IMG/VR virus record: IMGVR_UViG_3300025133_000022 | Span: 32,001 to 96,000 of that record | From: a virus | DNA length: 64,000 bases | Strand: one strand, 5' to 3' | The notes under the pieces: generated by a model | Told to the model about the DNA's origin: nothing | Databases searched by the model: none | The model's input: only the letters and a program-made list of their open reading frames with translations | Made by a program: the position numbers and the translations under genes | Shown: piece after piece, positions 3,089-38,833 of the stretch | Position numbering within the stretch: the first letter of the stretch is position 1 | How the letters are laid out: each line of letters begins with the position of its first letter

Positions 3089-3871
3089 ATGAAACTTACA
3101 TCAAAGACAGCAAAAGATAAAAACATGAACCGCATGGTTCTACAAGCCAAAACCACTGCAGCCAAAAAAGGCTTATTCAATCGCAAAGCCCAAGTTTATC
3201 TTAGCATTGATACCAGTGGTAGCATGCGCGACCACTATCGTAGTGGACGCGTACAAGAAATCGTCGAGCGCATGCTGGCCATCGCCCTAAACTTTGATGA
3301 TGACAAAGAAATTCGTATCTTTGCCTTTGGTACACAGCCTGTTGACTGTGGCGTAGTCACCATGAAGAACTACCACGAGTGCGTGGTCTACAACCCCAGT
3401 CGTAGCGTCACCATCAACGGCACCAATATCCGTCTTACCGGCACCAACTACGCTCCAGTATTCGAAGCTGTACTTCAAGACGCCTTCGGCATCAACTGGG
3501 AAACACTCAACAACCCCAAAGGGCTTTTTGGCTTCGGCAAAACCAAGAGCAGTCGCCCTAGTGTCAAGAACCCCTTGGACAACCCGGTCTTTCACTTGTT
3601 CGTCACCGACGGCGAGTGCGCAGACCGAAACGCCTCTCTAGCCATTGTAGACAAGAGCAGTAAGCTGCCGATGTTCACTCAGTTTGCAGGCTTCGGAAGG
3701 GATTTCCACACCCTAAGTCAAATTGACAACATGCAAGGTCGCTATGTCGACAATGCTGGAGTCTTCACGGCCTCCAGCCTGAATATCACTGATCAACAAC
3801 TGTTTGACGGCATGTTAAACGAATTTCCCGACTGGCTTCGGGCTACCTCAAACAAAGGCTGGTACAAATGA
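3089..3871 (+). CDS. vWA domain protein (TerF-associated type)
   Basis: MIDAS motif SIDTSGSM, GTNYAPV, FVTDGE, QFAGFG, DNAGVF. Confidence 0.85.
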   Translation: MKLTSKTAKDKNMNRMVLQAKTTAAKKGLFNRKAQVYLSIDTSGSMRDHYRSGRVQEIVERMLAIALNFDDDKEIRIFAFGTQPVDCGVVTMKNYHECVVYNPSRSVTINGTNIRLTGTNYAPVFEAVLQDAFGINWETLNNPKGLFGFGKTKSSRPSVKNPLDNPVFHLFVTDGECADRNASLAIVDKSSKLPMFTQFAGFGRDFHTLSQIDNMQGRYVDNAGVFTASSLNITDQQLFDGMLNEFPDWLRATSNKGWYK

Positions 3872-4164
3872 ATACAGAAACCACAGAAGCTAAAGCTACT
3901 GTGGAGAAGGTGCCCGAGAAGAAAGCCGTCAAGAAGATACAATTCACCTTCGAAGATGGCACAGTCACCAGGCTGTGCTTTGATTACCAAGAGTGGTGGG
4001 TTGAAGATGGCGAAGGCGTCATCCTGGAGCCAGATGGTAAAAACGAGTTCTATAAGAACTCAGCCAACATCACAGGCTACTTAACTGAAATGGCTGGCTG
4101 GGGATACCTCATCCAGCCAATGTTCGGTCCTAAATTCATGCTAACGCCACCTGAAGCTCAGTAG
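3868..4164 (+). CDS. Hypothetical protein
   Basis: ORF with a 4-bp overlap with the vWA gene; terminator hairpin follows at 4168-4190. Confidence 0.6.
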   Translation: MNTETTEAKATVEKVPEKKAVKKIQFTFEDGTVTRLCFDYQEWWVEDGEGVILEPDGKNEFYKNSANITGYLTEMAGWGYLIQPMFGPKFMLTPPEAQ

Positions 4165-7686: not shown

Positions 7687-8370
7687 ATGCAAATCACTGG
7701 AAAATTAAAATTAGATCCACAGGTACTTGCCACCGGCAAAACCCGCATACGGATCATCAGACGCCATAGCCAGCAACTAGCTATCTGTGCTCGTGCATAT
7801 GTTCCTCACCTCGAAAACAGTACACGAAGAAAAGCAAATCAACTAGACCAATTACTGGTTGATGACCCAAATTACTGGATTCGCCGCAAAGGAAAAATCA
7901 GTGAAGCTCACAAACTAGAAAGCCTCTTAGAGCATGCTCGTGAGATTGCACAAACTCAAAACAACTATCCAGAAATTAAGAAAATCTTGCAAGACACTAT
8001 CAAACAGATAGACAGTAGTCTTGTCCTTACCAGACAAGATAAAGGATGGGCAATTCTTAATGTATCCAAAAGCACTATCCTTCCATATCTTAAAAGCATC
8101 AGAAACACTGGTGTTCGTATAAACACCAGTGTTTGGGGTCCACACATTTCCGTAATTCGCGGAGAGCTTAGCCATTGGGAAGCTTCTCAAATGCATATGC
8201 TAGACGGAATGAAATTTGAAGTTGAGATAGGCGACACTATTCGCAAAAACCGTTCAGGTTACCACTGGCTAACAGTAAAATCCCGCAGATTAGAAAATTT
8301 GCGCTCAGAGCTAGATCTGCCACCTAGACCAAGCCCACCATTTCATCTAACTATCGGCAAAGGATGCTAA
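7687..8370 (+). CDS. Putative 2H phosphoesterase domain protein
   Basis: Two Hx(S/T) motifs (PHISVIRG and FHLTIG) spaced as in the 2H superfamily. Confidence 0.6.
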   Translation: MQITGKLKLDPQVLATGKTRIRIIRRHSQQLAICARAYVPHLENSTRRKANQLDQLLVDDPNYWIRRKGKISEAHKLESLLEHAREIAQTQNNYPEIKKILQDTIKQIDSSLVLTRQDKGWAILNVSKSTILPYLKSIRNTGVRINTSVWGPHISVIRGELSHWEASQMHMLDGMKFEVEIGDTIRKNRSGYHWLTVKSRRLENLRSELDLPPRPSPPFHLTIGKGC

Positions 8371-8546
8371 ACAGCAAGTTGTTTTTACCAGGACTTGCAG
8401 GAACCCTAACAATGGCCACGATCAAGTGGCAAGTTCAAGGAACTATCCTGGAGTGTCCTGTACCTCTTCATTATGGCATCTACTTATGTCTGTTTGCTCT
8501 GCTTCTACCTGTCGCAGAGTGGATACTACAACAGGTACAAAAATGA
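8364..8546 (+). CDS. Small membrane protein
   Basis: Two hydrophobic segments; overlaps both neighbours. Confidence 0.45.
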   Translation: MLNSKLFLPGLAGTLTMATIKWQVQGTILECPVPLHYGIYLCLFALLLPVAEWILQQVQK

Positions 8547-9097
8547 GCACATACTTCACAAGCGACACCCACTTCGGCCACAGAGGTATCATGCGCTGGG
8601 CAAAGAGACCTTTTGCCAGCGTAGAAGAAATGGACAAAGAAATGATTCGTCGGTGGAATGAAACAGTAGGCACTAACGACACTGTTTATCACCTAGGCGA
8701 CTTTGGGTTCCACAGTACAGCTGAACAACTGGATCCAATCCTAGCACAATTAAATGGCAAAATTCATTTGATTCTCGGCAACCATGATCAAAATCCAAAC
8801 ATTGAAACATTTGCTCACTGGCGAATCACTAGCTTTAAAGAACTACTCAAAATAAGAGTAGGTGGACAAGACATTGTGCTTTGCCACTACCCATTACAAG
8901 AATGGGATGGAGCATTCAGAGGAACATGGCATCTCCATGGTCACTCCCATAATCAATGGCCAATAAGTTCCTGGAAGCAAATTGATGTTGGCACTGACGG
9001 TCACGCATTTCACCCATGGTCAATGCAAGAACTTCATATCGAAATGTCAAAACGCAAAATCATGACTTCAGAAATCTATCAATCTCAGCCAAGTTAG
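8543..9097 (+). CDS. Calcineurin-like metallophosphoesterase
   Basis: SDTHFGH, HLGDF, LGNHD, LCHYP, HLHGHSH motifs. Confidence 0.9.
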   Translation: MSTYFTSDTHFGHRGIMRWAKRPFASVEEMDKEMIRRWNETVGTNDTVYHLGDFGFHSTAEQLDPILAQLNGKIHLILGNHDQNPNIETFAHWRITSFKELLKIRVGGQDIVLCHYPLQEWDGAFRGTWHLHGHSHNQWPISSWKQIDVGTDGHAFHPWSMQELHIEMSKRKIMTSEIYQSQPS

Positions 9098-9721: not shown

Positions 9722-10147
9722 ATGCCAATACTACTTGAGCGACCAAAACTAGTCATAGATGAAAACGGAAGGCCAATTTCAGAAAACGAAATGAAAAAAC
9801 GACAATGGAAAACCACAGTTGTTTGCGGCCAGCACAGCCTTGGCTGTGGTGCCAAATCAGAAATCGTTTTCAACGACATCTTCAAAAAAGTAATTCAAAA
9901 CCCTTCAATGACTCAAATCGGATATCATGCAAAATGCATGCATTGTCACCAAGATTTGGTAATTCCTCATAATGACACTCCTTGGCATTACGATGAAATT
10001 CCCGTGAAAACCAAATGGTTAAAAACCTATATGACGAGTCTAGTCGATACACTGCATGCAGAGTCCAACGACCGCCAACGCCTTAAAATAGATCTAATGA
10101 AAGACAATATCGATATTAAATATCTTAGAGAATACGACTGGTCATAA
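9722..10147 (+). CDS. Hypothetical protein, possible Zn-binding
   Basis: CGQHSLGCG and CMHC motifs. Confidence 0.55.
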   Translation: MPILLERPKLVIDENGRPISENEMKKRQWKTTVVCGQHSLGCGAKSEIVFNDIFKKVIQNPSMTQIGYHAKCMHCHQDLVIPHNDTPWHYDEIPVKTKWLKTYMTSLVDTLHAESNDRQRLKIDLMKDNIDIKYLREYDWS

Positions 10148-11248: not shown

Positions 11249-12610
11249 ATGAGCTACCAAGGCATCATAACCACAGTCAAGCTGAAACCACATCCTAGTG
11301 CAGACAAATTACTTCTTGCAGAAGTGGCAGGACACCAGCTAGTCTGCGCCAAGAATGCATACGAAGACGGTGACATCGTCATTTTCTTCCCCGAAGGTGG
11401 CCAACTCAGCCACCCGCTCTGCTGGTACAATGACCTCTACCGAGAAAACAAAGGTGAAAACCGCACACCTAATGTCTATGGATACTTTAGTGAAAATCGT
11501 CGAGTACGCAGCATTAAATTACGTGGTGAAATCTCAGAAGGCTTCATGCTTCCACTCGAAGGCTTGGCTTTCGTTGGCTCAGCCAAACCCCCGAGCGAAC
11601 TCCTTCGTCCCGGCATGCTTATCAACGAACTGCTAGGCAACGAAATCTGCAGAAAATACGAAACCCGTGCAACGAAACAAGCCCGACAAAAAGCAAGTGG
11701 TAAAGCTCGTAAAGACATTAACAACTTTGCCAAGGTTGGACAAACCAGTAAATTCCGCTACGTGATGAACAGCATCCCTAAAGATGCCATCATAACCATA
11801 TCTGAAAAGATTCATGGTACCAGTGGCAGAACCGGTCTTGTTAAAATCAAAGAACGTGTTGACCTACCATACCCCTGGTGGAAGCGTGCTTTGTACTGGA
11901 CTCGAGGACTGTTGCCCAACTGGACTTACGATCCAAAATACGTACCCCACACCCATACGCGAGAATTCAAACACCTCAGTGGCAGTCGCCGTATGATTGT
12001 GGCTCAAGACGAACAAATCTGCAAAACTCGTCCAGATGGTACTCCAATTCCACTTGGTTACCGCAAAAAGATTCACAACGCACTAATCAGCTGCCTCCGC
12101 CCAGGAGAAAGCCTATATTACGAAATCGTAGTGTGTAACGATCAAGGTGTATCCGACTTCCGACAAAAAATCGGCAACAACAAAAGCGACACAGTTCTCA
12201 AAAGTCTTCGAAAGAAATACGATGAACAAATGAACTATAGTTATGGGGTTGCTCCAGGCAGTTACAACATCTGGATATATCGCATCACCATGCAAAACGA
12301 ACGAGGTGATGCGATTCGCCTAGGATGGAATCAAATGACCAAGCGTGCCGCAGAGCTTGGAATTAGTACCGTTCCAGTGCTTGATCAATTCATCTACGAT
12401 GGTGACGCAGAGGCTCTTAACAAACGTCTTGCTCTCATCAGTGATGGACCTAGCACTTTAGACAGCACACACATTCGAGAAGGTGTGTGTGTGCATATCG
12501 ACAGTCCTAAAATGCAAAACGTATTTAAGCGAAAGGGTTTTGCATTTTGTCACTTGGAAGGAATAGCCAAGAACGACGATGAGTACGTTGATCCAGAAGA
12601 CATTGCGTGA
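11249..12610 (+). CDS. RNA ligase, DRB0094/Rnl2-like, with N-terminal OB/tRNA-binding domain
   Basis: HPSADKL, FFPEG, RVRSIKLRGEISEG N-domain; motif I SEKIHGTS; YYEIV; REGVCV; FKRK. Confidence 0.88.
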   Translation: MSYQGIITTVKLKPHPSADKLLLAEVAGHQLVCAKNAYEDGDIVIFFPEGGQLSHPLCWYNDLYRENKGENRTPNVYGYFSENRRVRSIKLRGEISEGFMLPLEGLAFVGSAKPPSELLRPGMLINELLGNEICRKYETRATKQARQKASGKARKDINNFAKVGQTSKFRYVMNSIPKDAIITISEKIHGTSGRTGLVKIKERVDLPYPWWKRALYWTRGLLPNWTYDPKYVPHTHTREFKHLSGSRRMIVAQDEQICKTRPDGTPIPLGYRKKIHNALISCLRPGESLYYEIVVCNDQGVSDFRQKIGNNKSDTVLKSLRKKYDEQMNYSYGVAPGSYNIWIYRITMQNERGDAIRLGWNQMTKRAAELGISTVPVLDQFIYDGDAEALNKRLALISDGPSTLDSTHIREGVCVHIDSPKMQNVFKRKGFAFCHLEGIAKNDDEYVDPEDIA

Positions 12611-19391: not shown

Positions 19392-20096
19392 ATGTCAAAC
19401 CCAACTCAATGGGACGTAGGAGGCTACGTCCGCGATGAACTCCTAGGTATTCCTAGCAAAGATCGCGACATTATGGTTGACCTGCCAAGCTACGAAAAAC
19501 TAGAAGCATGGGCAGAACAACATCTAACAAAAATCTATGAACGACGTCCTGAAATGCTTATCTTGCGAGGACACGGCCCCCTGGGGCCAGTCGATTACAA
19601 CCTCCCGCGCAACGAATCAGCCTACAGTGACAGCAGAACTCCAAACTCAGTAACGGTAGGCACTTTCGAGCAAGATATGGCTCGCAGAGATTTTACTTGT
19701 AATGCTATTGCCAAAAACATTGCAACCGGTGAAATCATAGACCTCCATGGAGGAATGTTAGACATCAATATGCGACGACTACGAATGGTAGGAAGCGCTT
19801 ACGCACGCCTTGATGAAGACCACCTACGAATTGTTCGTGCAATTCGATTCTGCATCACCAAAGGTTTCACACCATATGGAGAATTAGAGAAAATTCTACT
19901 ACATGGTGAATATGCAGATAAACTAGAATCCCTACCTGTTGAACGCATTGCAAATGAAATGTGTAAAGCATTTCATTTCAATACTGCATCAACACTGCAC
20001 TTTCTTGCGTCAATTCATCCAAAATATACAGAAGCCATCTTCTCAAAAAGACTCTGGCTACTACCAACCTTAAAAAATCGCAAATCTGCGGGATAA
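19392..20096 (+). CDS. cca: CCA-adding enzyme / tRNA nucleotidyltransferase (short form)
   Basis: VGGYVRD...DRDI, DMARRDFTCNAIA, EDHLRIVRAIRF. Confidence 0.88.
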   Translation: MSNPTQWDVGGYVRDELLGIPSKDRDIMVDLPSYEKLEAWAEQHLTKIYERRPEMLILRGHGPLGPVDYNLPRNESAYSDSRTPNSVTVGTFEQDMARRDFTCNAIAKNIATGEIIDLHGGMLDINMRRLRMVGSAYARLDEDHLRIVRAIRFCITKGFTPYGELEKILLHGEYADKLESLPVERIANEMCKAFHFNTASTLHFLASIHPKYTEAIFSKRLWLLPTLKNRKSAG

Positions 20097-20941: not shown

Positions 20942-21760
20942 ATGAGCAGAACAATCTTCATCGGAGACGTACATGGATGTTTAAAAGAACTTCAAGAACT
21001 TATTTGTAAGATACACTTACATCAAAACGACCATCTTGTTTTCGTTGGAGATCTGATTCATAAAGGACCCGACAGTACAGGAGTTCTTGAATATGTTCTC
21101 AACTTAACGAAAACATATAAAGTTGATATCATTTGTGGAAATCATGAAGAAAAACATCTTCGCTGGCTAAAAACAGAAGCATCTTGTCTTAAAACAAACA
21201 CTAAGAACACAATGCTACACGTAGAAGAATACCCATCGGTCAACGTCTCAAGCGAAGTCAAAGAACTTCTAGAAAACACCTACATTGCAAAAAAATACAA
21301 TAACACTGTAGCTGTACATGCTGGCATCCCTAGCAATTTGCTAGAACTCAAATGCATAACACATGCCGAGTGGTCTGCAACTAGCGGCAAACAGAAACGC
21401 GCTCTTGCTCAAGTTATGAGAGTTCGATTCCTTGCTGGACCCAACAGAACTAGCACAAATAGCAAAGGCAAAACAAAGAAAGTACAAATGGGCAAAATGA
21501 TTGCCCTTGGTCAAGAAAAACCAGAAGACAACTACTGGGCTAACGTTTATGATGGACGCTTCGGAACAGTAGTTTTTGGACACAACCCATTTATGGAAAA
21601 CAAGCCAAGAATCTTTCCCTATGCCTTTGGGGTTGACCTAGGATGCGTGCACGGAGGCTACCTCTGTGCACTAATCAAGAAAAATAAAACCACTACACAC
21701 GTTGTAGTCAAAGCAAAACAAACCTATCAAAAAAGTCCATCTTGGATTTACAAAAACTAA
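20942..21760 (+). CDS. Ser/Thr phosphatase-type metallophosphoesterase (PrpA/ApaH/Pnkp-phosphatase-like)
   Basis: IGDVHGC, VGDLIHKGP, GNHE, VHAG, FGH, DLGCVHGG. Confidence 0.88.
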   Translation: MSRTIFIGDVHGCLKELQELICKIHLHQNDHLVFVGDLIHKGPDSTGVLEYVLNLTKTYKVDIICGNHEEKHLRWLKTEASCLKTNTKNTMLHVEEYPSVNVSSEVKELLENTYIAKKYNNTVAVHAGIPSNLLELKCITHAEWSATSGKQKRALAQVMRVRFLAGPNRTSTNSKGKTKKVQMGKMIALGQEKPEDNYWANVYDGRFGTVVFGHNPFMENKPRIFPYAFGVDLGCVHGGYLCALIKKNKTTTHVVVKAKQTYQKSPSWIYKN

Positions 21761-22188: not shown

Positions 22189-22638
22189 ATGCCAACAGAA
22201 CACCATCAAGGCGACTTGCTTGCCAGCAACTGCACAGTCATAGCACATGGTTGCAATTGCTTTAACACAATGGGAGGAGGAATAGCACGTGTTATCAAAG
22301 CACGCTATCCCAAAGCCTACCAAGCCGATTGCGAAACCACAAGAGGTGACGCGAACAAGCTTGGCACCTACACTATGTGTTCGTACCCTGATCGCAGAAT
22401 CTTCAACCTGTATACACAATACAGGTTTGGAACAAACAAAATGCATCTTGATTATGAAGCACTTGTTAAGGCTCTCTTGCAATTGCGTTCGGCCTTAGAT
22501 AAACACGACCCCCACCATAATGAAATCGTAGGCTTCCCACGCATTGGTTGCGGATTAGCCGGTGGGAATTGGAAATACGTTGAAGAGCTTATCGAAACAG
22601 TATTCCCTAACAGAACGATACACATCTACACACTTTAG
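22189..22638 (+). CDS. Macro domain protein (ADP-ribose binding/hydrolase)
   Basis: QGDLL, AHGCNCFNTMGGGIA, NLYTQ, FPRIGCGLAGG. Confidence 0.9.
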   Translation: MPTEHHQGDLLASNCTVIAHGCNCFNTMGGGIARVIKARYPKAYQADCETTRGDANKLGTYTMCSYPDRRIFNLYTQYRFGTNKMHLDYEALVKALLQLRSALDKHDPHHNEIVGFPRIGCGLAGGNWKYVEELIETVFPNRTIHIYTL

Positions 22639-23440: not shown

Positions 23441-25024
23441 ATGCCAAACCCAAACTTATTCCACACCAAAACATCCCAGCCACTAGCCACCAGCCACAAC
23501 AACGCAGGTGGTCGTGCTTACAAAACTTCCGATATGCATGCGCTTGCACAGCTAGCATGCACTGGTGTATTTAACAACACCTACTACACCAAAGCTGAAA
23601 ACCAACTCAAGCAAGCTCGCGCGCTCTGCAAAAAGGTAAGCCCAGCAACAGTTGCACGTATCGCTGTATACTCACGTCAACAAGGCATGATGAAAGACAT
23701 GCCTGTGCTCTTGCTTACCTACTTGTTTTCCATCGAAGACAAGAAATACTTCAATGCCGCATTCCCGTATGTCGTAAACAACATCGGACAGCTACGCAGC
23801 TTTGTGCAAATGGTTCGTAGTGGTGTTTGTGGTCGTCGCTCTCTTGGCTCTGCAGGCAAGCGCGCAATCGCAAACATGCTCAACACCATGACTCCTCGTC
23901 GAATCTTCTGGCAAGCCACTGGCAAAGGTATGAGTTTTGCAGATGTTCTCAAGCTTGCTCATGTAAGACCACAAAGTGCAGCACACGACAGCTTCTTTGC
24001 CTACATGTTAGGTAAAAGTGTTTCTGAAGACTTTGAGAAACTACCAGAAAACATCCAGCACTTCGAATTGTTCAAACGCAAAGAGTACAGCGAAGTACCA
24101 GATGTACCATTTCAACGCCTGACCAATCTAGATCTTAGTGTAATCCAGTGGGGTGAAGTCACGCGCAAAATGACTTGGAACCAGCTTCGTTTCAACCTAA
24201 ACAACCTCACTCGCAAAGGTGTGTTCAAGGACACTCAGCTGGTTCTCGAAGTAGCAACCAAACTTCGCAATCCCAAAGCAGTGCTTGGCAGCAAGGTTTT
24301 GCCATTCAGTCTATACAACACTGTCAAACATCTAGATGACAGTGTTCCACAAGCTCTAAAGAACGCTATGGTCGATGCACTGGAAATCAGCGGACAAAAC
24401 GCCCCTGTGCTTCAAGGCAACACCCTCGTTCTCGTCGACTCTAGTGGCTCTATGAACTCGCCAACAACTGGCTACCGTGCTGGCGCAACCACCACCATGC
24501 GTTGCGTCGAAGCAGCTGGATACTTTGCAGTCAGCATACTCAAAGCCAACCCAGACAGCACCACCATCCTGCCATTTGACGGCCGAGTTCATCCAGTGAA
24601 CTTAAATCCACGTGATAGCATGGCAACCTTAATCAAAAAACTCCCAACTGCAGGCGGAAGCACCAATATTGCTTGCGGTATTGAATGGGCACTACACACA
24701 AGTACAAAATTCAACCAAATCATCATTGTTTCTGACAATGAGAGCTGGGTGAACTCTGATCAATACATGTGGTACAGTCACAAAATCACTGCAACCAAGC
24801 AAGCTTTTGAAAGATACCGTCGTCACAAGAGCCCTGGCTGTAAAATGATTTGTATCAATATTCAGCCAAGCACTACAACAACGCAGGCACCCGATGACAA
24901 AAATACACTAAACGTAGGAGGACTCAGCGACGCAGTCTTCCGTGTTGCTAGCCAATTCCTCACCAGTCGTGGTAACGCGCACTGGGAAGATGTACTTAAC
25001 AAGATTCTTCCGAATCTCAAATAA
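23441..25024 (+). CDS. rsr: Ro60/Rsr TROVE-domain RNA-binding protein
   Basis: NNAGGRAY, LAQLACTG, MKDMP, LRFNLNNL, vWA C-terminus LVDSSGSM...GGSTN...VSDNESW. Confidence 0.92.
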   Translation: MPNPNLFHTKTSQPLATSHNNAGGRAYKTSDMHALAQLACTGVFNNTYYTKAENQLKQARALCKKVSPATVARIAVYSRQQGMMKDMPVLLLTYLFSIEDKKYFNAAFPYVVNNIGQLRSFVQMVRSGVCGRRSLGSAGKRAIANMLNTMTPRRIFWQATGKGMSFADVLKLAHVRPQSAAHDSFFAYMLGKSVSEDFEKLPENIQHFELFKRKEYSEVPDVPFQRLTNLDLSVIQWGEVTRKMTWNQLRFNLNNLTRKGVFKDTQLVLEVATKLRNPKAVLGSKVLPFSLYNTVKHLDDSVPQALKNAMVDALEISGQNAPVLQGNTLVLVDSSGSMNSPTTGYRAGATTTMRCVEAAGYFAVSILKANPDSTTILPFDGRVHPVNLNPRDSMATLIKKLPTAGGSTNIACGIEWALHTSTKFNQIIIVSDNESWVNSDQYMWYSHKITATKQAFERYRRHKSPGCKMICINIQPSTTTTQAPDDKNTLNVGGLSDAVFRVASQFLTSRGNAHWEDVLNKILPNLK

Positions 25025-34410: not shown

Positions 34411-34815
34411 ATGGAAACGGAATACACGTAGAGCCAAATCAGTTCATTCTTTGAGCGGTTAGAACAAGTAAGCAACGCACTTAACATCTGTGGAGACTAT
34501 GACTTCGAATTCACAGAATGGGAAAGCCAGTCTGGATTCATCACAGTCAGCTGGGAAGAACCAGCTTGTGGTAGCGGTTGTTGTGGCTATGACAGTCATG
34601 AAGGCCAAATACCAGTAGCACTGCTATTTGATCCCAACTGGGAAGCAACAATAGCTGCTGATAAGAAAGCAAAACTAGCTAAAGCAAAAGCTGACAAGCT
34701 TGCTAAAGAGCAAGCTGACAAGCTACAACAGCAACGAAAGGCCGAACAAGCCAAAGCCAACAGGCGTTTGACTTACCAACAATTAGCCAAAGAGTTCGGA
34801 GACACCAGTGTCTGA
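34411..34815 (+). pseudogene. ORF interrupted by an in-frame TAG at codon 7 (pseudogene or amber read-through gene)
   Basis: AGGAG RBS, ATG, six codons, TAG (34429-34431), then 127 open codons ending in a TGA that overlaps the next gene. Confidence 0.65.
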
Positions 34816-35155
34816 ACACTCTTACGATCCTAACTGGAAGCTACGTATCGTAGTAGATCAAACACTAAAGCCAGGCCAACAGATAGCACAAGCTCTTCAT
34901 GCAGCCATTGAGTTCTTGTTTGTATATCCTGAACAATCAAACACATGGCACTGTCTAAGCAACAGCGTAGTCGTCATGAACTGTGAGCCAGAAGAGCTAC
35001 CCAAGCTCTTAGATCGTTGTAAAAAGAAAAATGTGCAATACTCTACCTTCATGGAGCCTGACATGGATAACCGACTTACAGCAGTCTGCATAGAGCCAAC
35101 ACGAACAGGAAAGAAGTGCACCAGCAATTACAAGCTGGCCATGCGAGACATCTAA
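34808..35155 (+). CDS. Peptidyl-tRNA hydrolase, Pth2-like
   Basis: KLRIVV...GQQIAQALHA...FMEPD...LTAVCIEP...KL. Confidence 0.75.
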   Translation: MSEHSYDPNWKLRIVVDQTLKPGQQIAQALHAAIEFLFVYPEQSNTWHCLSNSVVVMNCEPEELPKLLDRCKKKNVQYSTFMEPDMDNRLTAVCIEPTRTGKKCTSNYKLAMRDI

Positions 35156-35187: not shown

Positions 35188-35259
35188 GAGGAATTAGCTC
35201 AGCGGTAGAGCAGCAAATTCTAAACTTGTTTGTCGGGGGTTCGAATCCCCCATTCCTCA
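35188..35259 (+). tRNA. Amber suppressor tRNA (anticodon CTA)
   Basis: Canonical cloverleaf; GCAAA-ttCTAaa-CTTGT anticodon arm with an A31-C39 mismatch. Confidence 0.8.
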
Positions 35260-35365
35260 CTGCCGTAGGCGTGCGTAGCACGCCTTGTGGATTGAGCTCT
35301 TGACACACAAAAACAATCTGGTTATGTTGTCAGACTGTTCTTTGAAAACCACAATTGAAATGAAT

Positions 35366-35792: not shown

Positions 35793-35923
35793 GACTGAAT
35801 GCCTGAGCAGATTACATCGCCTTCCACGCGGGTAACACAGGTTCAAATCCTGTACTCGGCTTTATGCCGAGTTCGTCTAGCGGCTAAGACACCTCAAACT
35901 AATCTCTTGTATCCTTGTCAGTC
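35793..35923 (+). ncRNA. Scaffold element 1: circularly permuted tRNA-Gly(TCC)
   Basis: 3' half 35819-35861 precedes 5' half 35866-35894; joining gives CCTGC-ctTCCac-GCGGG; outer stem GACTGA/TCAGTC. Confidence 0.85.
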
Positions 35924-35966
35924 ACCTTCACGCCCATGATTCTGAGGCTGTAAATATCAGACGCAC

Positions 35967-36041
35967 GGCTATGTGGCTCAGTTTGGTTAGAGCAGGGGCT
36001 TCATACGCCCAAGGCCACAGGTTCAAATCCTGTCATAGCCA
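35967..36041 (+). tRNA. tRNA-Met/Ile2(CAT)
   Basis: Cloverleaf; loop ttCATac. Confidence 0.85.
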
Positions 36042-36056
36042 TTTCACACTATTTAA

Positions 36057-36132
36057 TGCGGAGTAGACTGGAGTTTGGTCCCAGCACGGTCTCATAAGCC
36101 GTATGACGTAGGTTCGAATCCTACTTCCGCCT
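36057..36132 (+). tRNA. tRNA-Met(CAT), possibly initiator-like
   Basis: Cloverleaf; loop ctCATaa; 1:72 mismatch. Confidence 0.82.
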
Positions 36133-36146
36133 CTTTAGAGAATGCA

Positions 36147-36452
36147 ATGTTTGATATAATAATTCCTTTCCTCATGGGCATCGTTCTTGTCGGTGCTATG
36201 ATGGAAAGAACTCTTACAGTCATTCAAGGAAACATTTCACGAACTGCTGTACTTAGCATTCTTATCAGTTCTGTGTATTGGTTTAACATCCAATATGTAG
36301 CGAGTGGAAATGTAGCTGCTTATATTAGTTTCAGTATAGGAACTCTTATAGTTACCTGTTGGCAAAGCTGGCGAGAAAAACAACGCTATGCTGGACAACC
36401 GGGGAAAAGCAGAAGAATGACTGACAAACTTAAAAATATTAAGAAAGAATGA
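36147..36452 (+). CDS. Small membrane protein
   Basis: Three hydrophobic segments. Confidence 0.55.
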   Translation: MFDIIIPFLMGIVLVGAMMERTLTVIQGNISRTAVLSILISSVYWFNIQYVASGNVAAYISFSIGTLIVTCWQSWREKQRYAGQPGKSRRMTDKLKNIKKE

Positions 36453-36617
36453 ACAAGAGTTTTCATCGCAAAAATAACGGCCCTAAGGTACCTAGATCTG
36501 GGCAACCAGTCAGGGAAAAATGTGAATCCTTCATGGACAAAGCATTGTGGTGACGGCAGATAAGCTTCTTGAAGCCCTGTAACGACCGGCAGAAACTCTT
36601 ACCTCCTTGTCTTTCTT
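36441..36617 (+). ncRNA. Scaffold element 2: non-tRNA cargo
   Basis: AAGAAAGA-ATG...TCATCG...AAACTCTT-ACCTC-CTTG-TCTTTCTT. Confidence 0.65.
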
Positions 36618-36654
36618 ATGTATTTGAATACTTAGTATTTCCTATTTACTTTTT

Positions 36655-36730
36655 GTCCTTGTAGCTCAGTGTTTAGAGCGCCCGAACCTGAAAAGCAGGG
36701 AGGTCGTCGGTTAGAATCCAACCAAGGACA
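36655..36730 (+). tRNA. Degenerate tRNA-like gene
   Basis: Acceptor GTCCTTG/CAAGGAC and D arm intact; T-loop GTTAGAA and anticodon arm irregular. Confidence 0.5.
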
Positions 36731-36858
36731 ACAAATACATCTAAGTGCATCCAGACCTTACAGGCAACCCAAGGGTCAAGCCTGCAAGTGAAACTGTACA
36801 TTTGTGGGTACACAAACCCCGTGAGACCGTTCTCGACACGTTAAATCGGAGGACACAC

Positions 36859-37032
36859 GTTAGAATGCCAGAGAAAGATTACATCGTGCCAATTTACGAG
36901 CCGGTGGTTCAACTCCACAGCTAGAAAGCATGTACGCACGTGCAAAGGCGTACAAGGAGCGACGTTGGGTCGCTCATCGTGGATCGAAAGCCCACGATTC
37001 CTAAAAAATCATCTTCTCACCTCTTGTCTAAC
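36859..37032 (+). ncRNA. Scaffold element 3: T-loop hairpin plus multi-hairpin cargo
   Basis: GTTAGA-ATGCC...AGATTACATCG...CTTG-TCTAAC; GTGG-TTCAACT-CCAC hairpin. Confidence 0.75.
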
Positions 37033-37071
37033 ACCCTTACTCGCGTAGTTGAACCAGCTCGCTTGTACCAC

Positions 37072-37235
37072 GTACGAATGCCCAGTGAGGATTACATCGC
37101 CTTATAAGCGGGTGGTCGCAGGTTCGAGTCCTGTCTCTCCAACCATGGTCTTGACGGGCCTGGCTGTTAGCACAGCCGGAGAGTAGCTCAGTTGGTAGAG
37201 CACCTACAAACTGATCCCACAATTTCTTGTCGTAC
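37072..37235 (+). ncRNA. Scaffold element 4: circularly permuted tRNA with TAT anticodon
   Basis: 3' half 37099-37145 ends ACCA; hairpin linker; 5' half 37177-37205; joining gives CCTGC-ctTATaa-GCGGG. Confidence 0.85.
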
Positions 37236-37278
37236 ATTTTATCGAATTGAGCGTAGCTCAAACCCACCTCAATAACCA

Positions 37279-37409
37279 TAAACAAATGCCAAATAGATTA
37301 CATCGTCCCCGCCATATGGGGACGTGGTGTACAGGCGCACACCCTGAGTCCAATCAGGGAGGAATGGGTTCGATTCCCGTGTAATAATCTATTCACTTCT
37401 TTGTTGTTT
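37279..37409 (+). ncRNA. Scaffold element 5: tRNA permuted at the T-arm/acceptor junction (65/66)
   Basis: CGTCCCC-G-CCA (37304-37314) precedes GGGGACG...T-arm (37318-37380); anticodon loop aberrant (GTCCAA). Confidence 0.78.
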
Positions 37410-37605
37410 TATGTAGCAACTGCTCCCTAAAAGTACTACATTACCATCGTGGGATACGTCAGGTTAGTCCTGGAAGACTTGGTACGTTAAGCCAAGCGCG
37501 TTAAAGCACTTAAGTGCCTTGACTGGTTTTAATCAGGATACGTCCCCGCGTCTTCACTGTCGCAAGACAGCAACCCTTCAGGTGGGTACTGATTAAAATC
37601 ACCAC

Positions 37606-37740
37606 GATCGAATGCCAGAGTAGATTACATCGCTTTTGGAGCCGGTGGTTCCCGGTTCGAATCCGGGTCTCCCTACTATAGAGAGGTAGCTTAATCAGGT
37701 AGAGCACCGTTAAAACTAATCTCTCACTTCTTTGTCGATC
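37606..37740 (+). ncRNA. Scaffold element 6: circularly permuted tRNA-Gln(TTG)
   Basis: 3' half 37632-37675, 5' half 37680-37709; joining gives CCGGC-ttTTGga-GCCGG; outer stem GATCGA/TCGATC. Confidence 0.85.
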
Positions 37741-37935
37741 ACCTTTTTCATACAAAAAACAACCATACAGATGAGAAAATATGAGAAGTAGACAATACGC
37801 CAAAATCAAAAGACGAGTACGCTTGCGTCTCATCGACGGCATGGATCCAGAACGTGTCGAAGAATTAAAAAACGAAGAACTAGCTCGCCTTGAAGCAGGC
37901 GAACGACCCTACCGAGCACCATCTCGATAGAGTAT

Positions 37936-38024
37936 GGTAGGTGTAGCTCATTTGGAGACGCAAGTCGTAGAGCGCCGGGTTGTGATTCCGGAGGTAACGG
38001 GTTCAATCCCCGTCATCTACCCCA
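37936..38024 (+). tRNA. tRNA-His(GTG) with a hairpin insertion in the D-loop
   Basis: G-1, loop ttGTGat, CCA; D-loop contains GAC-GCAA-GTC. Confidence 0.82.
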
Positions 38025-38182
38025 AGAACTAGCTAGCCTAGAGAGCACCACAGTTGAGACAACTGTGGGTCAATGTTCTCGCCACGAACAATTTGCTAAA
38101 TAGTGAAGACAGAGAGCCATGAAAAGCGACGACCTGTTGTTCAGAGCCCGTGCCTACCAGGCAGCACGACCGGGCTCACCAT

Positions 38183-38352
38183 GTTGGAATGCCATGTAGA
38201 ATACACCGAATCAACGTAAACCCGGCGCCTTTTGGCTTTGTAGGTTCGAATCCTACCTCACCGACCAAAGCTCTTGAAATAAGAGTTAGGTGAGTGGTGA
38301 AATGGTAAACACTCCGGATGATTTTATCTTCATCTACACTTCCTTGTCCAAC
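38183..38352 (+). ncRNA. Scaffold element 7: circularly permuted tRNA-Tyr-like (GTA, type II)
   Basis: 3' half about 38215-38266 (GTAAA-CCCGG, variable arm, T arm, ACCA); hairpin linker; 5' half 38288-38319; outer stem GTTGGA/TCCAAC. Confidence 0.8.
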
Positions 38353-38436
38353 ACCCCACGGGAAAGCAACTCTTCGCGTAGAGTTGAGAGGAGCAGGCTC
38401 ACTGCAGTCGCGCCCAGTCGCGACCTTTCCCACCAC

Positions 38437-38567
38437 GACCGAATGCCCTAGATAACTACATCGTAAAACTTGAAATTTTAAGGTCTGGGTTCGAGTCCCA
38501 GTGGGTCCACTTTGGGCCTGTGGTGTAACGGTAGCATCAAACATGTTATCTAACTCTTTTGTCGGTC
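38437..38567 (+). ncRNA. Scaffold element 8: tRNA permuted near 26/27 (TGA loop, short variable region)
   Basis: TAAAA-ctTGAaa-TTTTA, T arm, TGGGTCC-A, linker CTTT, GGGCCTG plus D arm; outer stem GACCGA/TCGGTC. Confidence 0.78.
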
Positions 38568-38745: not shown

Positions 38746-38833
38746 GCGGGGTTAGCTCAGTCTGGCCAGAGCGCCGGCCTTCCAAGCCGGAGGCGAATAG
38801 TTTACACGGGTTCGAATCCCGTACCCCGCTCCA
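38746..38833 (+). tRNA. tRNA-Gly(TCC) with an extended variable region
   Basis: Loop ctTCCaa; UCCA end; ~15-nt variable segment. Confidence 0.82.

What the first reader, a model, noticed from the sequence alone, without database searches (positions are those of the whole stretch)
35793..38567. Array of eight Y-RNA-like scaffolds, six carrying circularly permuted tRNAs
Seen: eight elements (35793, 36441, 36859, 37072, 37279, 37606, 38183, 38437) share the layout stem1-ATG(CC)-stem2-(A)CATCG-[cargo]-stem2'-pyrimidine tract-(C/T)TTG-stem1'. In six, the cargo is a tRNA whose 3' part comes before its 5' part, with the acceptor stem closed by a short linker or hairpin. Rejoining the halves gives cloverleaves with Gly-TCC (U73), TAT, Gln-TTG, Tyr-like GTA and TGA loops, plus one aberrant loop. 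Three have CCA encoded in the linker. Established: bacterial YrlA Y RNAs are tRNA mimics with a closed acceptor stem and a Ro-binding stem; permuted tRNA genes are known from red algae and some archaea. Inference: this is either a phage family of Ro60-bound tRNA-mimic decoys or permuted pre-tRNAs matured by cutting and ligation. An array that keeps isoacceptor-specific anticodon loops is not something I recognise from any phage or bacterium.
Basis: partly seen in the sequence, partly recalled or inferred. Interest (0 to 1): 0.97.

Follow-up and report, generated by a model that had tools for sequence, protein, structure and literature searches.

The report
Phage Y-RNA array carrying whole tRNAs
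A 192-kb uncultured phage that encodes a Ro60 protein also carries eight small RNA genes sharing the Ro60-docking handle of bacterial YrlA Y RNAs; six display a complete tRNA, anticodon arm included, with its ends moved, which extends the known tRNA-mimic Y RNAs and recurs in other uncultured phages.

Summary
Eight + strand elements (35793-38567) share a covarying two-helix handle. In six of them the cargo rejoins into a cloverleaf that ARAGORN calls a tRNA: Gly-UCC, Ile-UAU, Gln-UUG, Tyr-GUA, a UGA loop, and one with a 6-nt loop.

The handle is that of YrlA, the Ro60-bound bacterial Y RNA. Rfam RF02553 aligns full length to three copies, but below threshold (27-41 bits; cut-off 69). A Ro60 orthologue lies 10.8 kb upstream on the same strand. 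Seven of the nine records carrying the handle encode Ro60.

YrlA is already described as a circularly permuted tRNA mimic that lacks an anticodon loop. Three things appear new here: complete anticodon arms, four different opening points, and eight copies in one array. The same design (opened at 29/30, at least 13 different anticodons, arrays of 2-4) occurs in about 16 metagenomic contig families. Simpler copies occur in Myxococcus phage Mx1.

Best reading: these are Ro60-bound Y RNAs, probably nicked by RNase P and CCA-tailed, that act as tRNA look-alikes. Their function is untested. I found no splicing endonuclease, BHB motif or RtcB that would mature them into real tRNAs.

This scan has already reported similar phage Ro60/Y-RNA arrays on other DNA. 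Verdict: a new variant of a known kind.

The parts
35793..35923 (+). E1: Y handle plus tRNA opened at 29/30. 3' part 35819-35861, linker TTAT, 5' part 35866-35894. Loop CUUCCAC (UCC), U73, no CCA.
   Evidence: Seed of model R1, 125.7 bits. Rejoined sequence is called tRNA-Gly(tcc) by ARAGORN. The MFE fold shows the outer stem and the T, acceptor and D arms, z = -2.8.
36443..36615 (+). E2: handle with variant inner loop (ATGAA) and about 110 nt of non-tRNA cargo. Its 5' end overlaps the stop codon of ORF 36075-36452.
   Evidence: Outer stem 6/6 pairs. The MFE fold gives long outer and inner stems. Model R1 does not find it at E<=1, so membership rests on the handle alone.
36859..37032 (+). E3: handle plus cargo made of a 6-nt-loop hairpin, a T-arm-like hairpin (loop UUCAACU) and three further hairpins. 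No cloverleaf.
   Evidence: R1 36.4 bits, full-length match. Fold.
37072..37235 (+). E4: handle plus tRNA opened at 29/30. 3' part 37099-37145 ending in ACCA, a structured linker of about 31 nt, 5' part about 37177-37205. Loop CUUAUAA (UAU). C1.A72 mismatch.
   Evidence: Rfam YrlA 40.9 bits, full length, with a 15-nt insertion at the anticodon hairpin. R1 128 bits. ARAGORN calls tRNA-Ile(tat).
37280..37409 (+). E5: handle plus tRNA in native order, opened at 65/66. The acceptor 3' strand and GCCA come first, then TAT, then nt 1-65. The anticodon loop has only 6 nt.
   Evidence: ARAGORN calls an undetermined tRNA (cc) with a perfect 7-bp acceptor stem. R1 29.5 bits. The MFE fold reproduces all arms, z = -2.9.
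37606..37740 (+). E6: handle plus tRNA opened at 29/30. 3' part 37632-37675, linker CUAU, 5' part 37680-37709. Loop UUUUGGA (UUG). A3.C70 mismatch, A73.
   Evidence: Rfam YrlA 37.6 bits. R1 140 bits. ARAGORN calls tRNA-Gln(ttg). The MFE fold is not informative, z = -0.6.
38183..38352 (+). E7: handle (CACCG variant) plus tRNA opened near 31/32. 3' part 38214-38267 ending in ACCA, hairpin linker, 5' part 38288-38318. Loop ACGUAAA (GUA, with C33). Long variable arm. A1.G72 mismatch.
   Evidence: R1 40.7 bits, full length. ARAGORN calls tRNA-Tyr(gta) only at a relaxed threshold.
38437..38567 (+). E8: handle plus tRNA opened at 26/27, with the whole 5-bp anticodon arm on the 5' side. 3' part 38464-38509, linker CUUU, 5' part 38514-38539. 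Loop CUUGAAA (UGA). G3.U70, A73, short variable region.
   Evidence: Rfam YrlA 27.2 bits. R1 59.2 bits. ARAGORN drawing. The MFE fold reproduces the handle and all four arms.
23441..25024 (+). Ro60 (Rsr/TROVE) orthologue, 527 aa. Presumed protein partner of the eight RNAs. It lies 10.8 kb upstream on the same strand.
   Evidence: Pfam vWA_Ro60 67 bits and TROVE 23.1 bits. phrog_850 full length, E 1e-41. Full-length matches to D. radiodurans Rsr 2NVO (1.4e-17), Thermus phage phiLo Ro60 9KOP/9L5Y and Xenopus Ro60 1YVP.
19392..20096 (+). tRNA nucleotidyltransferase (CCA-adding enzyme), 234 aa. It could complete or repair the 3' ends of the nicked RNAs. Its link to the array is inferred.
   Evidence: Pfam PolyA_pol head domain 74 bits. 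phrog_2244 tRNA nucleotidyltransferase, E 1e-38.
11249..12610 (+). RNA ligase candidate, 453 aa, in the same tRNA island. This is context only. It is the sole enzyme found that could serve a ligation route.
   Evidence: Pfam RNA_ligase 27.1 bits (cut-off 27) and PHA02142 OB-fold 35 bits.

Best explanation
The eight elements are genes for Y RNAs of the YrlA type, the small RNAs that dock onto the ring protein Ro60, which this phage encodes itself.

The constant part is the docking handle. It consists of a 6-bp outer stem, an internal loop (5' AUGCC opposite a pyrimidine tract ending in UUG), an inner stem ending in GAUUA, and the junction CAUCG.

The variable part is displayed on the handle. 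In six copies it is a whole tRNA whose acceptor stem is closed by a short linker and whose chain is opened elsewhere: at 29/30 in three copies, and at 26/27, about 31/32 and 65/66 in one copy each.

Most likely the RNAs are cut out of the polycistronic tRNA-island transcript and bound by the phage Ro60. Where the acceptor stem is tRNA-length and followed by a discriminator (with or without CCA), they are probably nicked by host RNase P and trimmed or CCA-tailed, as shown for M. smegmatis YrlA. That would leave a two-piece, Ro60-held tRNA look-alike.

I infer that these particles present isoacceptor-like tRNA surfaces to tRNA-binding proteins such as nucleases, PNPase, synthetases or modification enzymes, during the phage-host contest over tRNAs. 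I do not think they decode on ribosomes.

Shown here: the sequence architecture, the covariation, the YrlA likeness, the presence of Ro60 and its co-occurrence with the handle, and the cloverleaf cargo. Inferred: transcription, Ro60 binding, RNase P/CCA processing, and the decoy or tether role.
For: Handle resembles YrlA:
- RF02553 aligns over all 114 model positions to E4, E6 and E8. The conserved GAAUGC, YUAY, T-loop, D-loop and CUUGUCG blocks are matched.
- The YUAY motif and a fourth stem-loop upstream of the T arm are described for YrlA (PMC4201824).

Ro60:
- The genome has a full-length orthologue.
- vWA_Ro60 ORFs of 520-577 aa occur in G001, G002, G003, G004 and G007. With this genome and Myxococcus phage Mx1, that makes 7 of the 9 records carrying the handle.
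- Only 357 of 50,697 catalogued phages have a Ro60 homologue by tblastn.
- In G002 and G007 the RNAs abut the Ro60 gene.

Structure under selection.

Cargo is tRNA-shaped.

Other uncultured phages hold arrays of the same handle:
- G001 has 4 copies and G003 at least 5.
- About 16 metagenomic contig families carry CM-confirmed copies, in arrays of 2-4.
- Rejoining 19 distinct metagenomic copies at 29/30 gives ARAGORN tRNA calls with canonical 7-nt loops, nearly all with U33 and a purine at 37.
- In the three related Lys copies (L226, L201, L223) the loop is identical while the linkers differ.

Precedents:
- M. smegmatis YrlA is cut by RNase P and gains CCA in vivo, and both halves stay on Rsr (PMC4201824).
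- Thermus phage phiLo Ro60 binds two phage Y-like RNAs and host PNPase (PMC12135203).
- A Ro60-like protein of phage Bas63 counters the Ppl defence (PMC11482910).

A handle inserted into the anticodon stem at 29/30 is hard to reconcile with ribosomal decoding (inference from established tRNA-ribosome contacts).
Against: - No copy reaches Rfam's gathering score (best 40.9 against 69).
- The published GNCGAAN0-1G motif is matched only in its core: CGAAUG in three copies, NGAAUG in four, CAAAUG in E5.
- The Ro60 gene is 10.8-13.4 kb away, whereas published YrlAs lie within about 4 kb.
- One complete handle-bearing phage record (G005, 67 kb) shows no Ro60 gene, nor does a 61%-complete one (G006).
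- Nothing here shows expression, Ro60 binding or processing.
- A pure tether or decoy would not obviously need an encoded CCA, a class-II variable arm (E7) or U73 with a Gly anticodon (E1).
- Tyr and Ser-UCN are absent from the 24 ARAGORN-called plus 2 Rfam-only canonical phage tRNA genes, so E7 and E8 could in principle fill gaps.
Confidence: 0.72

Rival explanations
1. These are genuine permuted tRNA genes. The handle is a processing or chaperoning module that is cut away, the two ends (for example nt 29 and 30) are ligated, and RNase P and 3' trimming open the acceptor stem. The result is ordinary decoding tRNAs.
For: - The rejoined sequences are good cloverleaves with canonical anticodon loops.
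- CCA is encoded in three window copies and in many relatives.
- E1 pairs U73 with UCC. E7 pairs A73 and a long variable arm with GUA.
- Tyr and Ser-UCN tRNAs are otherwise missing from the genome.
- An RNA ligase candidate, a metallophosphoesterase, a macro-domain protein and a CCA-adding enzyme sit in the same island.
- Wang et al. raised this possibility for YrlA (10.1101/312249).
Against: - There is no bulge-helix-bulge at the junction. It is a 4 x 5-7 nt internal loop (direct reading).
- No splicing endonuclease, RtcB or Tpt1 was found in the genome.
- E1, E4 and E6 duplicate canonical Gly-UCC, Ile-UAU and Gln-UUG genes.
- Several copies have defects: C33 and A1.G72 in E7, C1.A72 in E4, A3.C70 in E6, a 6-nt loop in E5, and a Ser anticodon without a long variable arm but with G3.U70/A73 in E8.
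- Across 26 chimeras the discriminator matches the canonical majority for its anticodon in only 12 (permutation p about 0.14).
- Relatives in G003 have G55 in the T loop and a shifted loop register.
- Two window copies and many relatives carry no tRNA at all on the same handle.
Confidence: 0.12
2. The handle has nothing to do with Ro60. It is a self-processing element (a small ribozyme or permuted mini-intron) or a generic processing signal of phage tRNA operons.
For: - The constant internal loop and junction are strongly conserved while the stems covary, as in small ribozymes.
- Minimal copies sit immediately beside tRNA genes in other phages.
- Two handle-bearing records lack a detectable Ro60.
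Against: - The conserved blocks are those of the YrlA model, aligned end to end.
- Ro60 is present in 7 of 9 records carrying the handle, against under 1% of catalogued phages.
- No Rfam ribozyme family matched the region at E<=10.
Confidence: 0.06
3. The elements are decaying duplicates of tRNA genes and one ancestral Y RNA, without present function.
For: Several copies carry mismatches or aberrant loops. E2 and E3 carry unrelated cargo.
Against: - Every outer stem is fully paired through compensatory changes.
- 31 of 34 pairs covary.
- The tRNA bodies are no closer to the phage's canonical tRNAs (0.64-0.76 identity) than those are to each other (mean 0.61, maximum 0.76), so they are not recent copies.
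- The same design persists across distant phages.
Confidence: 0.03

Closest known systems
YrlA (Y RNA-like A; Rfam RF02553) with bacterial Ro60/Rsr: Salmonella Typhimurium, Mycobacterium smegmatis, mycobacteriophages (Chen et al. 2014, PMC4201824; Wang et al. 2018, 10.1101/312249)
   Same: - Terminal helix with a GAAUG-type 5' motif.
- YUAY motif before a stem-loop upstream of the T arm.
- T arm, then closed acceptor-like stem, then D arm, i.e. a circularly permuted tRNA-like module.
- Encoded in genomes that have Ro60, on the same strand.
- More than one Y RNA per genome.
   Different: - Here the stem-loop upstream of the T arm is a real anticodon arm (7-nt loop, U33, purine 37) that completes a 5-bp anticodon stem. 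Published YrlA is said to lack the anticodon loop, and that hairpin was read as a variable arm.
- Acceptor stems here are 7 bp with a discriminator and often CCA.
- There are four different opening points.
- There are eight copies, 10.8-13.4 kb from Ro60.
- Scores fall below the Rfam threshold.
M. smegmatis YrlA processing (Chen et al. 2014, PMC4201824)
   Same: A 7-bp acceptor stem. In vivo it is cut by RNase P and the 3' end is trimmed and CCA-tailed, and both halves remain bound to Rsr. This is the processing I infer for E1 and E4-E8.
   Different: Processing is shown there and only inferred here. The M. smegmatis RNA is not reported to have an anticodon loop.
Phage Ro60 systems: Thermus phage phiLo Ro60 with Yrl1/Yrl2 and host PNPase (PMC12135203); Bas63 gp130 countering the Ppl defence (PMC11482910)
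   Same: A phage-encoded Ro60 with phage-encoded Y-like RNAs in or beside tRNA genes, with a suggested role in host-phage conflict.
   Different: phiLo has two simple Y-like RNAs next to the gene. No partner RNAs were identified for Bas63. Neither paper describes tRNA-complete cargo or large arrays.
Circularly permuted tRNA genes of Cyanidioschyzon merolae and some archaea (as summarised in 10.1101/312249 and PMC4090602)
   Same: The 3' half is encoded before the 5' half, the acceptor stem is closed by a linker, and the ends pair in an extended helix.
   Different: Those use a bulge-helix-bulge junction, a splicing endonuclease and a ligase, and they yield mature tRNAs. None of these was found here, and the terminal helix here is a Y-RNA handle.
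Unannotated Y-like RNAs of Myxococcus phage Mx1 (OR576727.2) and Gordonia phage Cashline (MW534378.1), found here
   Same: - Mx1, whose Ro60 is 38% identical, has two handle-bearing RNAs in its tRNA island (L187 8256-8379 and 8608-8709).
- Cashline has two YrlA-like RNAs just upstream of Ro60, each with a 7-nt-loop hairpin before the T arm.
   Different: - Mx1 copy A has no anticodon hairpin. Copy B has the hairpin and a T arm, but no D arm and no clear acceptor stem.
- The Cashline copies have 5-bp tetraloop-closed acceptor stems and do not rejoin cleanly into tRNAs.

Membership tests
YrlA (RF02553) | Score at or above Rfam's gathering threshold (69 bits) | tested here: not met
   Best scores are 40.9 (E4), 37.6 (E6) and 27.2 (E8). 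The other five copies are not reported at E<=10. The alignments are nevertheless full length (1-114), with a 15-nt insertion at the anticodon hairpin.
YrlA (RF02553) | 5' motif GNCGAAN0-1G in the terminal helix, the presumed Ro60 contact (PMC4201824) | tested here: inconclusive
   CGAAUG occurs in E4, E6 and E8. UGAAUG, AGAAUG or GGAAUG occurs in E1, E2, E3 and E7, and CAAAUG in E5. The leading G of the motif falls in the covarying stem and is not conserved.
YrlA (RF02553) | Conserved YUAY before the stem-loop that precedes the T arm | tested here: met
   UUAC in E1, E3, E4, E5 and E6; AUAC in E7; CUAC in E8. E2 departs from the motif with UUUC.
YrlA (RF02553) | tRNA-like module in the order T arm, closed acceptor-like stem, D arm | tested here: met
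   Met in E1, E4, E6, E7 and E8. E5 has the native tRNA order. E2 and E3 lack the module.
YrlA (RF02553) | Encoded near the Ro60 gene (within about 4 kb) on the same strand | tested here: not met
   The strand and genome are the same, but the distance is 10.8-13.4 kb. In relatives the distance ranges from about 0.1 kb (G007) to 11 kb (G001).
YrlA (RF02553) | Bound by Ro60/Rsr in vivo | not testable with these tools
   Only co-occurrence could be tested: 7 of 9 handle-bearing records encode Ro60.
Circularly permuted tRNA genes (red-algal/archaeal type) | 3' half upstream of 5' half, rejoining into a cloverleaf | tested here: met
   ARAGORN calls on the rejoined halves of E1, E4, E5, E6, E8 and E7.
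Circularly permuted tRNA genes (red-algal/archaeal type) | Bulge-helix-bulge motif at the junction of the termini | tested here: not met
   The junction is an internal loop: CAUC on the 5' strand and 5-7 nt ending in AAAC on the 3' strand. There are not two 3-nt bulges separated by 4 bp (direct reading).
Circularly permuted tRNA genes (red-algal/archaeal type) | Splicing endonuclease and RNA ligase available | tested here: not met
   No tRNA_int_endo, RtcB or Tpt1 in the 192-kb genome. One Rnl-type ligase candidate is present. Host enzymes are unknown.
Circularly permuted tRNA genes (red-algal/archaeal type) | A mature contiguous tRNA is produced | not testable with these tools
   This needs RNA data.

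The most novel reading that the evidence does not exclude
The Y handle is a Ro60-assisted assembly or processing platform. After RNase P and CCA maturation, the handle-borne tRNAs are aminoacylated. They would then work either as two-piece tRNAs or, after excision of the handle and sealing by the phage RNA ligase, as ordinary tRNAs (for example the otherwise missing Tyr). That would be a bacterial-virus route for permuted or split tRNA genes, and a new job for Ro60.
Probability: 0.1. Interest if true: 0.92.

Novelty: new variant of a known kind. Interest (0 to 1): 0.64.

Why it matters
What the tRNA-like half of bacterial Y RNAs is for remains an open question. Published work expects an unknown tRNA-binding effector.

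Here the mimicry extends to complete tRNAs with isoacceptor-type anticodon loops. They are multiplied eightfold in a phage that also carries Ro60, a CCA-adding enzyme, an RNA ligase candidate and a large tRNA set. The same design recurs in other uncultured phages with at least 13 different anticodons.

That gives concrete, testable baits. One can ask which host or phage proteins each Ro60/Y-tRNA particle captures: anticodon nucleases, PNPase, synthetases or modification enzymes. One can also ask whether phage Ro60 systems protect against tRNA-targeting defences.

The result also shows that Y-RNA genes go unannotated in tRNA islands of cultured phages. In Mx1 one lies under a 'hypothetical protein' call.

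Tried and rejected
- Megablast of the region against 50,697 phage records gave no match.
- The search for related loci with the Ro60 protein in IMG/VR found no close relative.
- Loose DNA patterns for the handle returned mostly chance hits.
- MAFFT alignments of minimal copies placed the inner-stem 3' strand inconsistently, so I did not build a handle-only model.
- RNA duplex energies of the 5' and 3' arms discriminated cognate partners poorly and the script had anchoring bugs. I replaced it with direct pair counts.
- Recent capture of the phage's own tRNAs is rejected. Identity to the best canonical tRNA (0.64-0.76) is within the range seen between unrelated canonical tRNAs.
- Retention of synthetase identity, tested as discriminator versus anticodon, gave 12 of 26 matches and p about 0.14. 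It is not significant, so I make no claim.
- Brute-force rejoining of the Gordonia phage Cashline YrlAs gave only implausible cut points and I discarded it.
- Most exact matches of the chimera pattern were chance: only about 16 contig families among the 80 metagenome and viral loci searched, and 2 of 36 GTDB loci, were confirmed by the model.
- No sigma-70-type promoter or + strand terminator pattern delimits the elements.
- Thermodynamic folding alone is weak support: z ranges from -0.6 to -2.9.

Full report
**What is there.** The window is bases 32001-96000 of a 192.5-kb IMG/VR virus record. It holds a long tRNA island with 23 ARAGORN tRNAs and 26 Rfam tRNA hits, all on the + strand. Between 35793 and 38567 lie eight elements with one layout:
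- a 6-bp outer stem;
- AUGCC (AUGAA in E2);
- an inner stem of about 9-11 bp, mostly ending in GAUUA;
- CAUCG (CACCG in E7);
- cargo of 57-125 nt;
- the return strand of the inner stem;
- a pyrimidine-rich stretch ending in UUG;
- the return strand of the outer stem.

The motif ATGCC-N6-16-AYAYCG occurs seven times in the window, only here and only on +, against 0.74 expected. All eight outer stems pair 6/6 with their own partner. They pair 3.9/6 on average with another copy's partner, and 6 of 100,000 permutations reach the observed total.

**The handle is that of YrlA, and the phage has Ro60.** A permissive Rfam scan aligns YrlA (RF02553) over its whole length to E4 (40.9 bits), E6 (37.6) and E8 (27.2). 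The conserved GAAUGC, YUAY, T-loop, D-loop and CUUGUCG blocks are matched. All three scores are below the 69-bit threshold, and there is a 15-nt insertion between the YUAY motif and the helix that leads to the T arm.

A 527-aa ORF at 23441-25024, on the same strand and 10.8 kb upstream, is a Ro60 orthologue:
- vWA_Ro60 67 bits and TROVE 23.1 bits;
- full-length phrog_850;
- full-length matches to D. radiodurans Rsr (2NVO, 1.4e-17), Thermus phage phiLo Ro60 and Xenopus and human Ro60.

Its closest catalogued relative is the TROVE protein of Myxococcus phage Mx1, at 38% identity.

The handle occurs in eight other records examined as whole records: seven IMG/VR records (G001-G007) and Mx1. Of these, G001, G002, G003, G004, G007 and Mx1 encode Ro60. 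G005 (complete, 67 kb) and G006 (61% complete) do not. By the same tblastn only 357 of 50,697 catalogued phages have a Ro60 homologue. In G002 and G007 the RNAs abut the Ro60 gene.

**The cargo.** I rejoined the two parts at points fixed by the structure and ran ARAGORN.

| Copy | Opened at | ARAGORN call | Notes |
|---|---|---|---|
| E1 | 29/30 | tRNA-Gly(UCC) | U73, G1:C72, C2:G71 |
| E4 | 29/30 | tRNA-Ile(UAU) | A73-CCA encoded; C1.A72 mismatch |
| E6 | 29/30 | tRNA-Gln(UUG) | A3.C70 mismatch |
| E8 | 26/27 | 'Ser'(UGA) | short variable region, G3.U70, A73 |
| E5 | 65/66 (native order) | undetermined tRNA | perfect acceptor stem, GCCA, 6-nt loop |
| E7 | about 31/32 | tRNA-Tyr(GUA), relaxed threshold only | long variable arm, A73-CCA, C33, A1.G72 |

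In E1, E4 and E6 the anticodon stem is assembled from two sources. Nucleotides 27-29 follow the D arm. G30-C31 belong to the conserved CAUCGC. Pair 29:41 changes from U:G to G:C, and in a relative pair 27:43 changes from C:G to A:U. This favours the split-stem reading over a simple hairpin closed by CAUCGC.

E2 and E3 carry other cargo. E3 has a T-arm-like hairpin.

The tRNA bodies are not recent copies of the phage's canonical tRNAs. Best identities are 0.64-0.76, against a background mean of 0.61 and maximum of 0.76.

The genome has canonical Gly-UCC, Ile-UAU and Gln-UUG genes. It has none for Tyr, Ser-UCN, Ala, Cys or Trp.

**Relatives.** I built covariance model R1 from E1, E4, E6 and two IMG/VR copies. 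It finds E8, E7, E3 and E5 as full-length matches, but not E2. It also finds arrays elsewhere:
- four handle elements interleaved with tRNAs in G001 (165.8 kb);
- at least five in G003 (359 kb);
- two in G002;
- two in Mx1 (L187 8256-8379 and 8608-8709), one lying under an annotated hypothetical CDS.

Minimal copies of 56-65 nt, consisting of the handle alone, sit beside tRNA genes in G003, G004 and G005.

On the model-fitted alignment of 26 matches, 92.7% of cells pair, against 61.8% shuffled and 39-46% slid. 31 of 34 pairs change on both sides. The alignment is fitted to the model, so these counts lean towards the structure.

A pattern specific for the 29/30-opened design returned 5 viral, 76 metagenome and 36 GTDB loci. 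The model confirmed about 16 contig families, with arrays of 2-4 in L207, L224, L238, L248 and L203. Only two GTDB MAG contigs were confirmed.

Rejoining these copies at 29/30 gives ARAGORN calls for Asp, Arg (UCU, UCG), Pro, Lys, Ile, Ser, Asn, Glu, Thr and Gly. The loops are 7 nt, nearly all with U33 and a purine at 37. Many encode CCA followed by an A/U-rich linker. In three related Lys copies the loop is identical while the linkers differ.

**Limits of the tRNA likeness.**
- The discriminator matches the majority discriminator of canonical tRNAs with the same anticodon in only 12 of 26 chimeras (p about 0.14).
- Ser-anticodon copies lack the long variable arm.
- G003 copies have G55 in the T loop, and one has its UCC shifted by one position.
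- Thermodynamic folding gives z-scores of -0.6 to -2.9.

**Compared with what is known.**
- Chen et al. 2014 (PMC4201824) described YrlA in more than 250 bacteria and 22 phages. It has T, acceptor-like and D stem-loops, a less conserved fourth stem-loop upstream of T that they read as a variable arm, the YUAY motif and the GNCGAAN0-1G motif. They showed that M. smegmatis YrlA is cut by RNase P and CCA-tailed in vivo.
- Wang et al. 2018 (10.1101/312249) solved the tRNA-like domain. [quoted passage not shown] They raise possible processing towards tRNA-like forms.
- Phage Ro60 with two Y-like RNAs and host PNPase is described for Thermus phage phiLo (PMC12135203).
- A Ro60-like protein of phage Bas63 counters the Ppl defence. 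Its authors suggest that some neighbouring 'tRNA genes' are Y RNAs (PMC11482910).

So the kind is known. Four points are not described in the papers I could read:
- the fourth stem-loop can be a bona fide anticodon arm, making the cargo a complete tRNA;
- one handle is attached at four different positions of the tRNA;
- arrays reach eight copies with different anticodons;
- the genes can lie more than 10 kb from Ro60, inside the tRNA island.

Even a cultured actinophage (Gordonia phage Cashline) has 7-nt-loop hairpins at that position, but with short tetraloop-closed acceptor stems.

**How it most likely works.**
- Shown: architecture, covariation, YrlA likeness, Ro60 presence and co-occurrence, and cloverleaf cargo.
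- Inferred from the M. smegmatis precedent and from acceptor stems of tRNA length (7 bp in E1, E5, E6 and E8; 6 bp plus a 1:72 mismatch in E4 and E7), each followed by a discriminator with or without CCA, and with U at -1 in at least four of six copies: RNase P nicks the linker, the 3' end is trimmed or CCA-tailed (the phage has its own CCA-adding enzyme at 19392-20096), and both pieces stay together on Ro60 through the handle.
- Inferred: the particles present tRNA-like surfaces to tRNA-binding proteins in the host-phage conflict.

Decoding on ribosomes seems unlikely while a helix of about 20 bp branches from the anticodon stem. Full maturation would need excision and ligation, and I found no BHB, no splicing endonuclease, no RtcB and no Tpt1. 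I did find an Rnl-type ligase candidate, a metallophosphoesterase and a macro-domain protein in the island. I give the Ro60-bound mimic reading 0.72 and maturation to real tRNAs 0.12.

**Earlier notes of this scan.** One search reports similar phage Ro60/Y-like RNA arrays with tRNA-like cargo on other genomes. I did not use them as evidence. One of them pointed to the Bas63 paper, which I read myself.

Noticed in passing
window 37937-38021: A tRNA-His(GUG)-like gene with a 15-nt insertion in the D loop and a G at -1. Rfam finds it (51 bits) but ARAGORN does not.
   Followed up: partly
window 36655-36730 and 38746-38833: Two more odd tRNA-like genes. One has a 14-nt region in place of the 11 model positions of the inner anticodon stem and loop (Rfam 45.5 bits, not called by ARAGORN). 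The other is an 88-nt Gly(UCC) with an insertion between the anticodon arm and the T arm.
   Followed up: no
window 35188-35260: A canonical-looking tRNA with a CUA (amber suppressor) anticodon, which ARAGORN labels 'Pyl' (Rfam 67 bits).
   Followed up: no
window 11249-12610, 19392-20096, 20942-21760, 22189-22638, 34808-35155: A tRNA/RNA-maintenance gene set in the island: an Rnl-type RNA ligase candidate, a CCA-adding enzyme, a calcineurin-like phosphoesterase (which also matches the N-terminal part of a phage 'RNA ligase' PHROG), a macro-domain protein and peptidyl-tRNA hydrolase PTH2.
   Followed up: partly
window, flanks of E1, E3, E4, E6, E7 and E8: ACCAC or ACCAU directly precedes the outer stem in E1, E4, E5, E6, E7 and E8 (E3 has ACACAC). 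ACC directly follows it in five of eight copies (E1, E3, E6, E7, E8). These may be processing or CCA-like end signals. Relatives do not share them.
   Followed up: no
window about 37040-37060 and about 38375-38395; also 37410-37605 and 38022-38182: The spacers after E3 and E7 share a motif (UCGCGUAG, 0-1 nt, UUGA). The 196-nt spacer after E5 contains a near-copy of the junction motif (AUUACCAUCG) and a direct repeat GGAUACGUC. These may be further unclassified RNAs.
   Followed up: no
L187 (Myxococcus phage Mx1, OR576727.2) 8256-8379, 8608-8709, 9732-10109: The cultured phage Mx1 has two unannotated Y-like RNAs, one lying under an annotated hypothetical CDS. It also has an unannotated tmRNA (Rfam 117.7 bits) that overlaps a short CDS annotated as 'Hef-like endonuclease'.
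   Followed up: partly
L281 (Gordonia phage Cashline, MW534378.1) 3625-3754 and 3771-3899: Two unannotated YrlA-like RNAs lie just upstream of the annotated Ro-like gene. Each has a 3-bp hairpin with a 7-nt anticodon-like loop (CUGCAAA, AUUUGGA) before the T arm.
   Followed up: partly
whole genome G000: ARAGORN finds no canonical tRNA for Tyr, Ala, Cys, Trp or Ser-UCN among 24 tRNA genes. Tyr(GUA) and UGA loops occur only on Y handles (E7, E8).
   Followed up: partly
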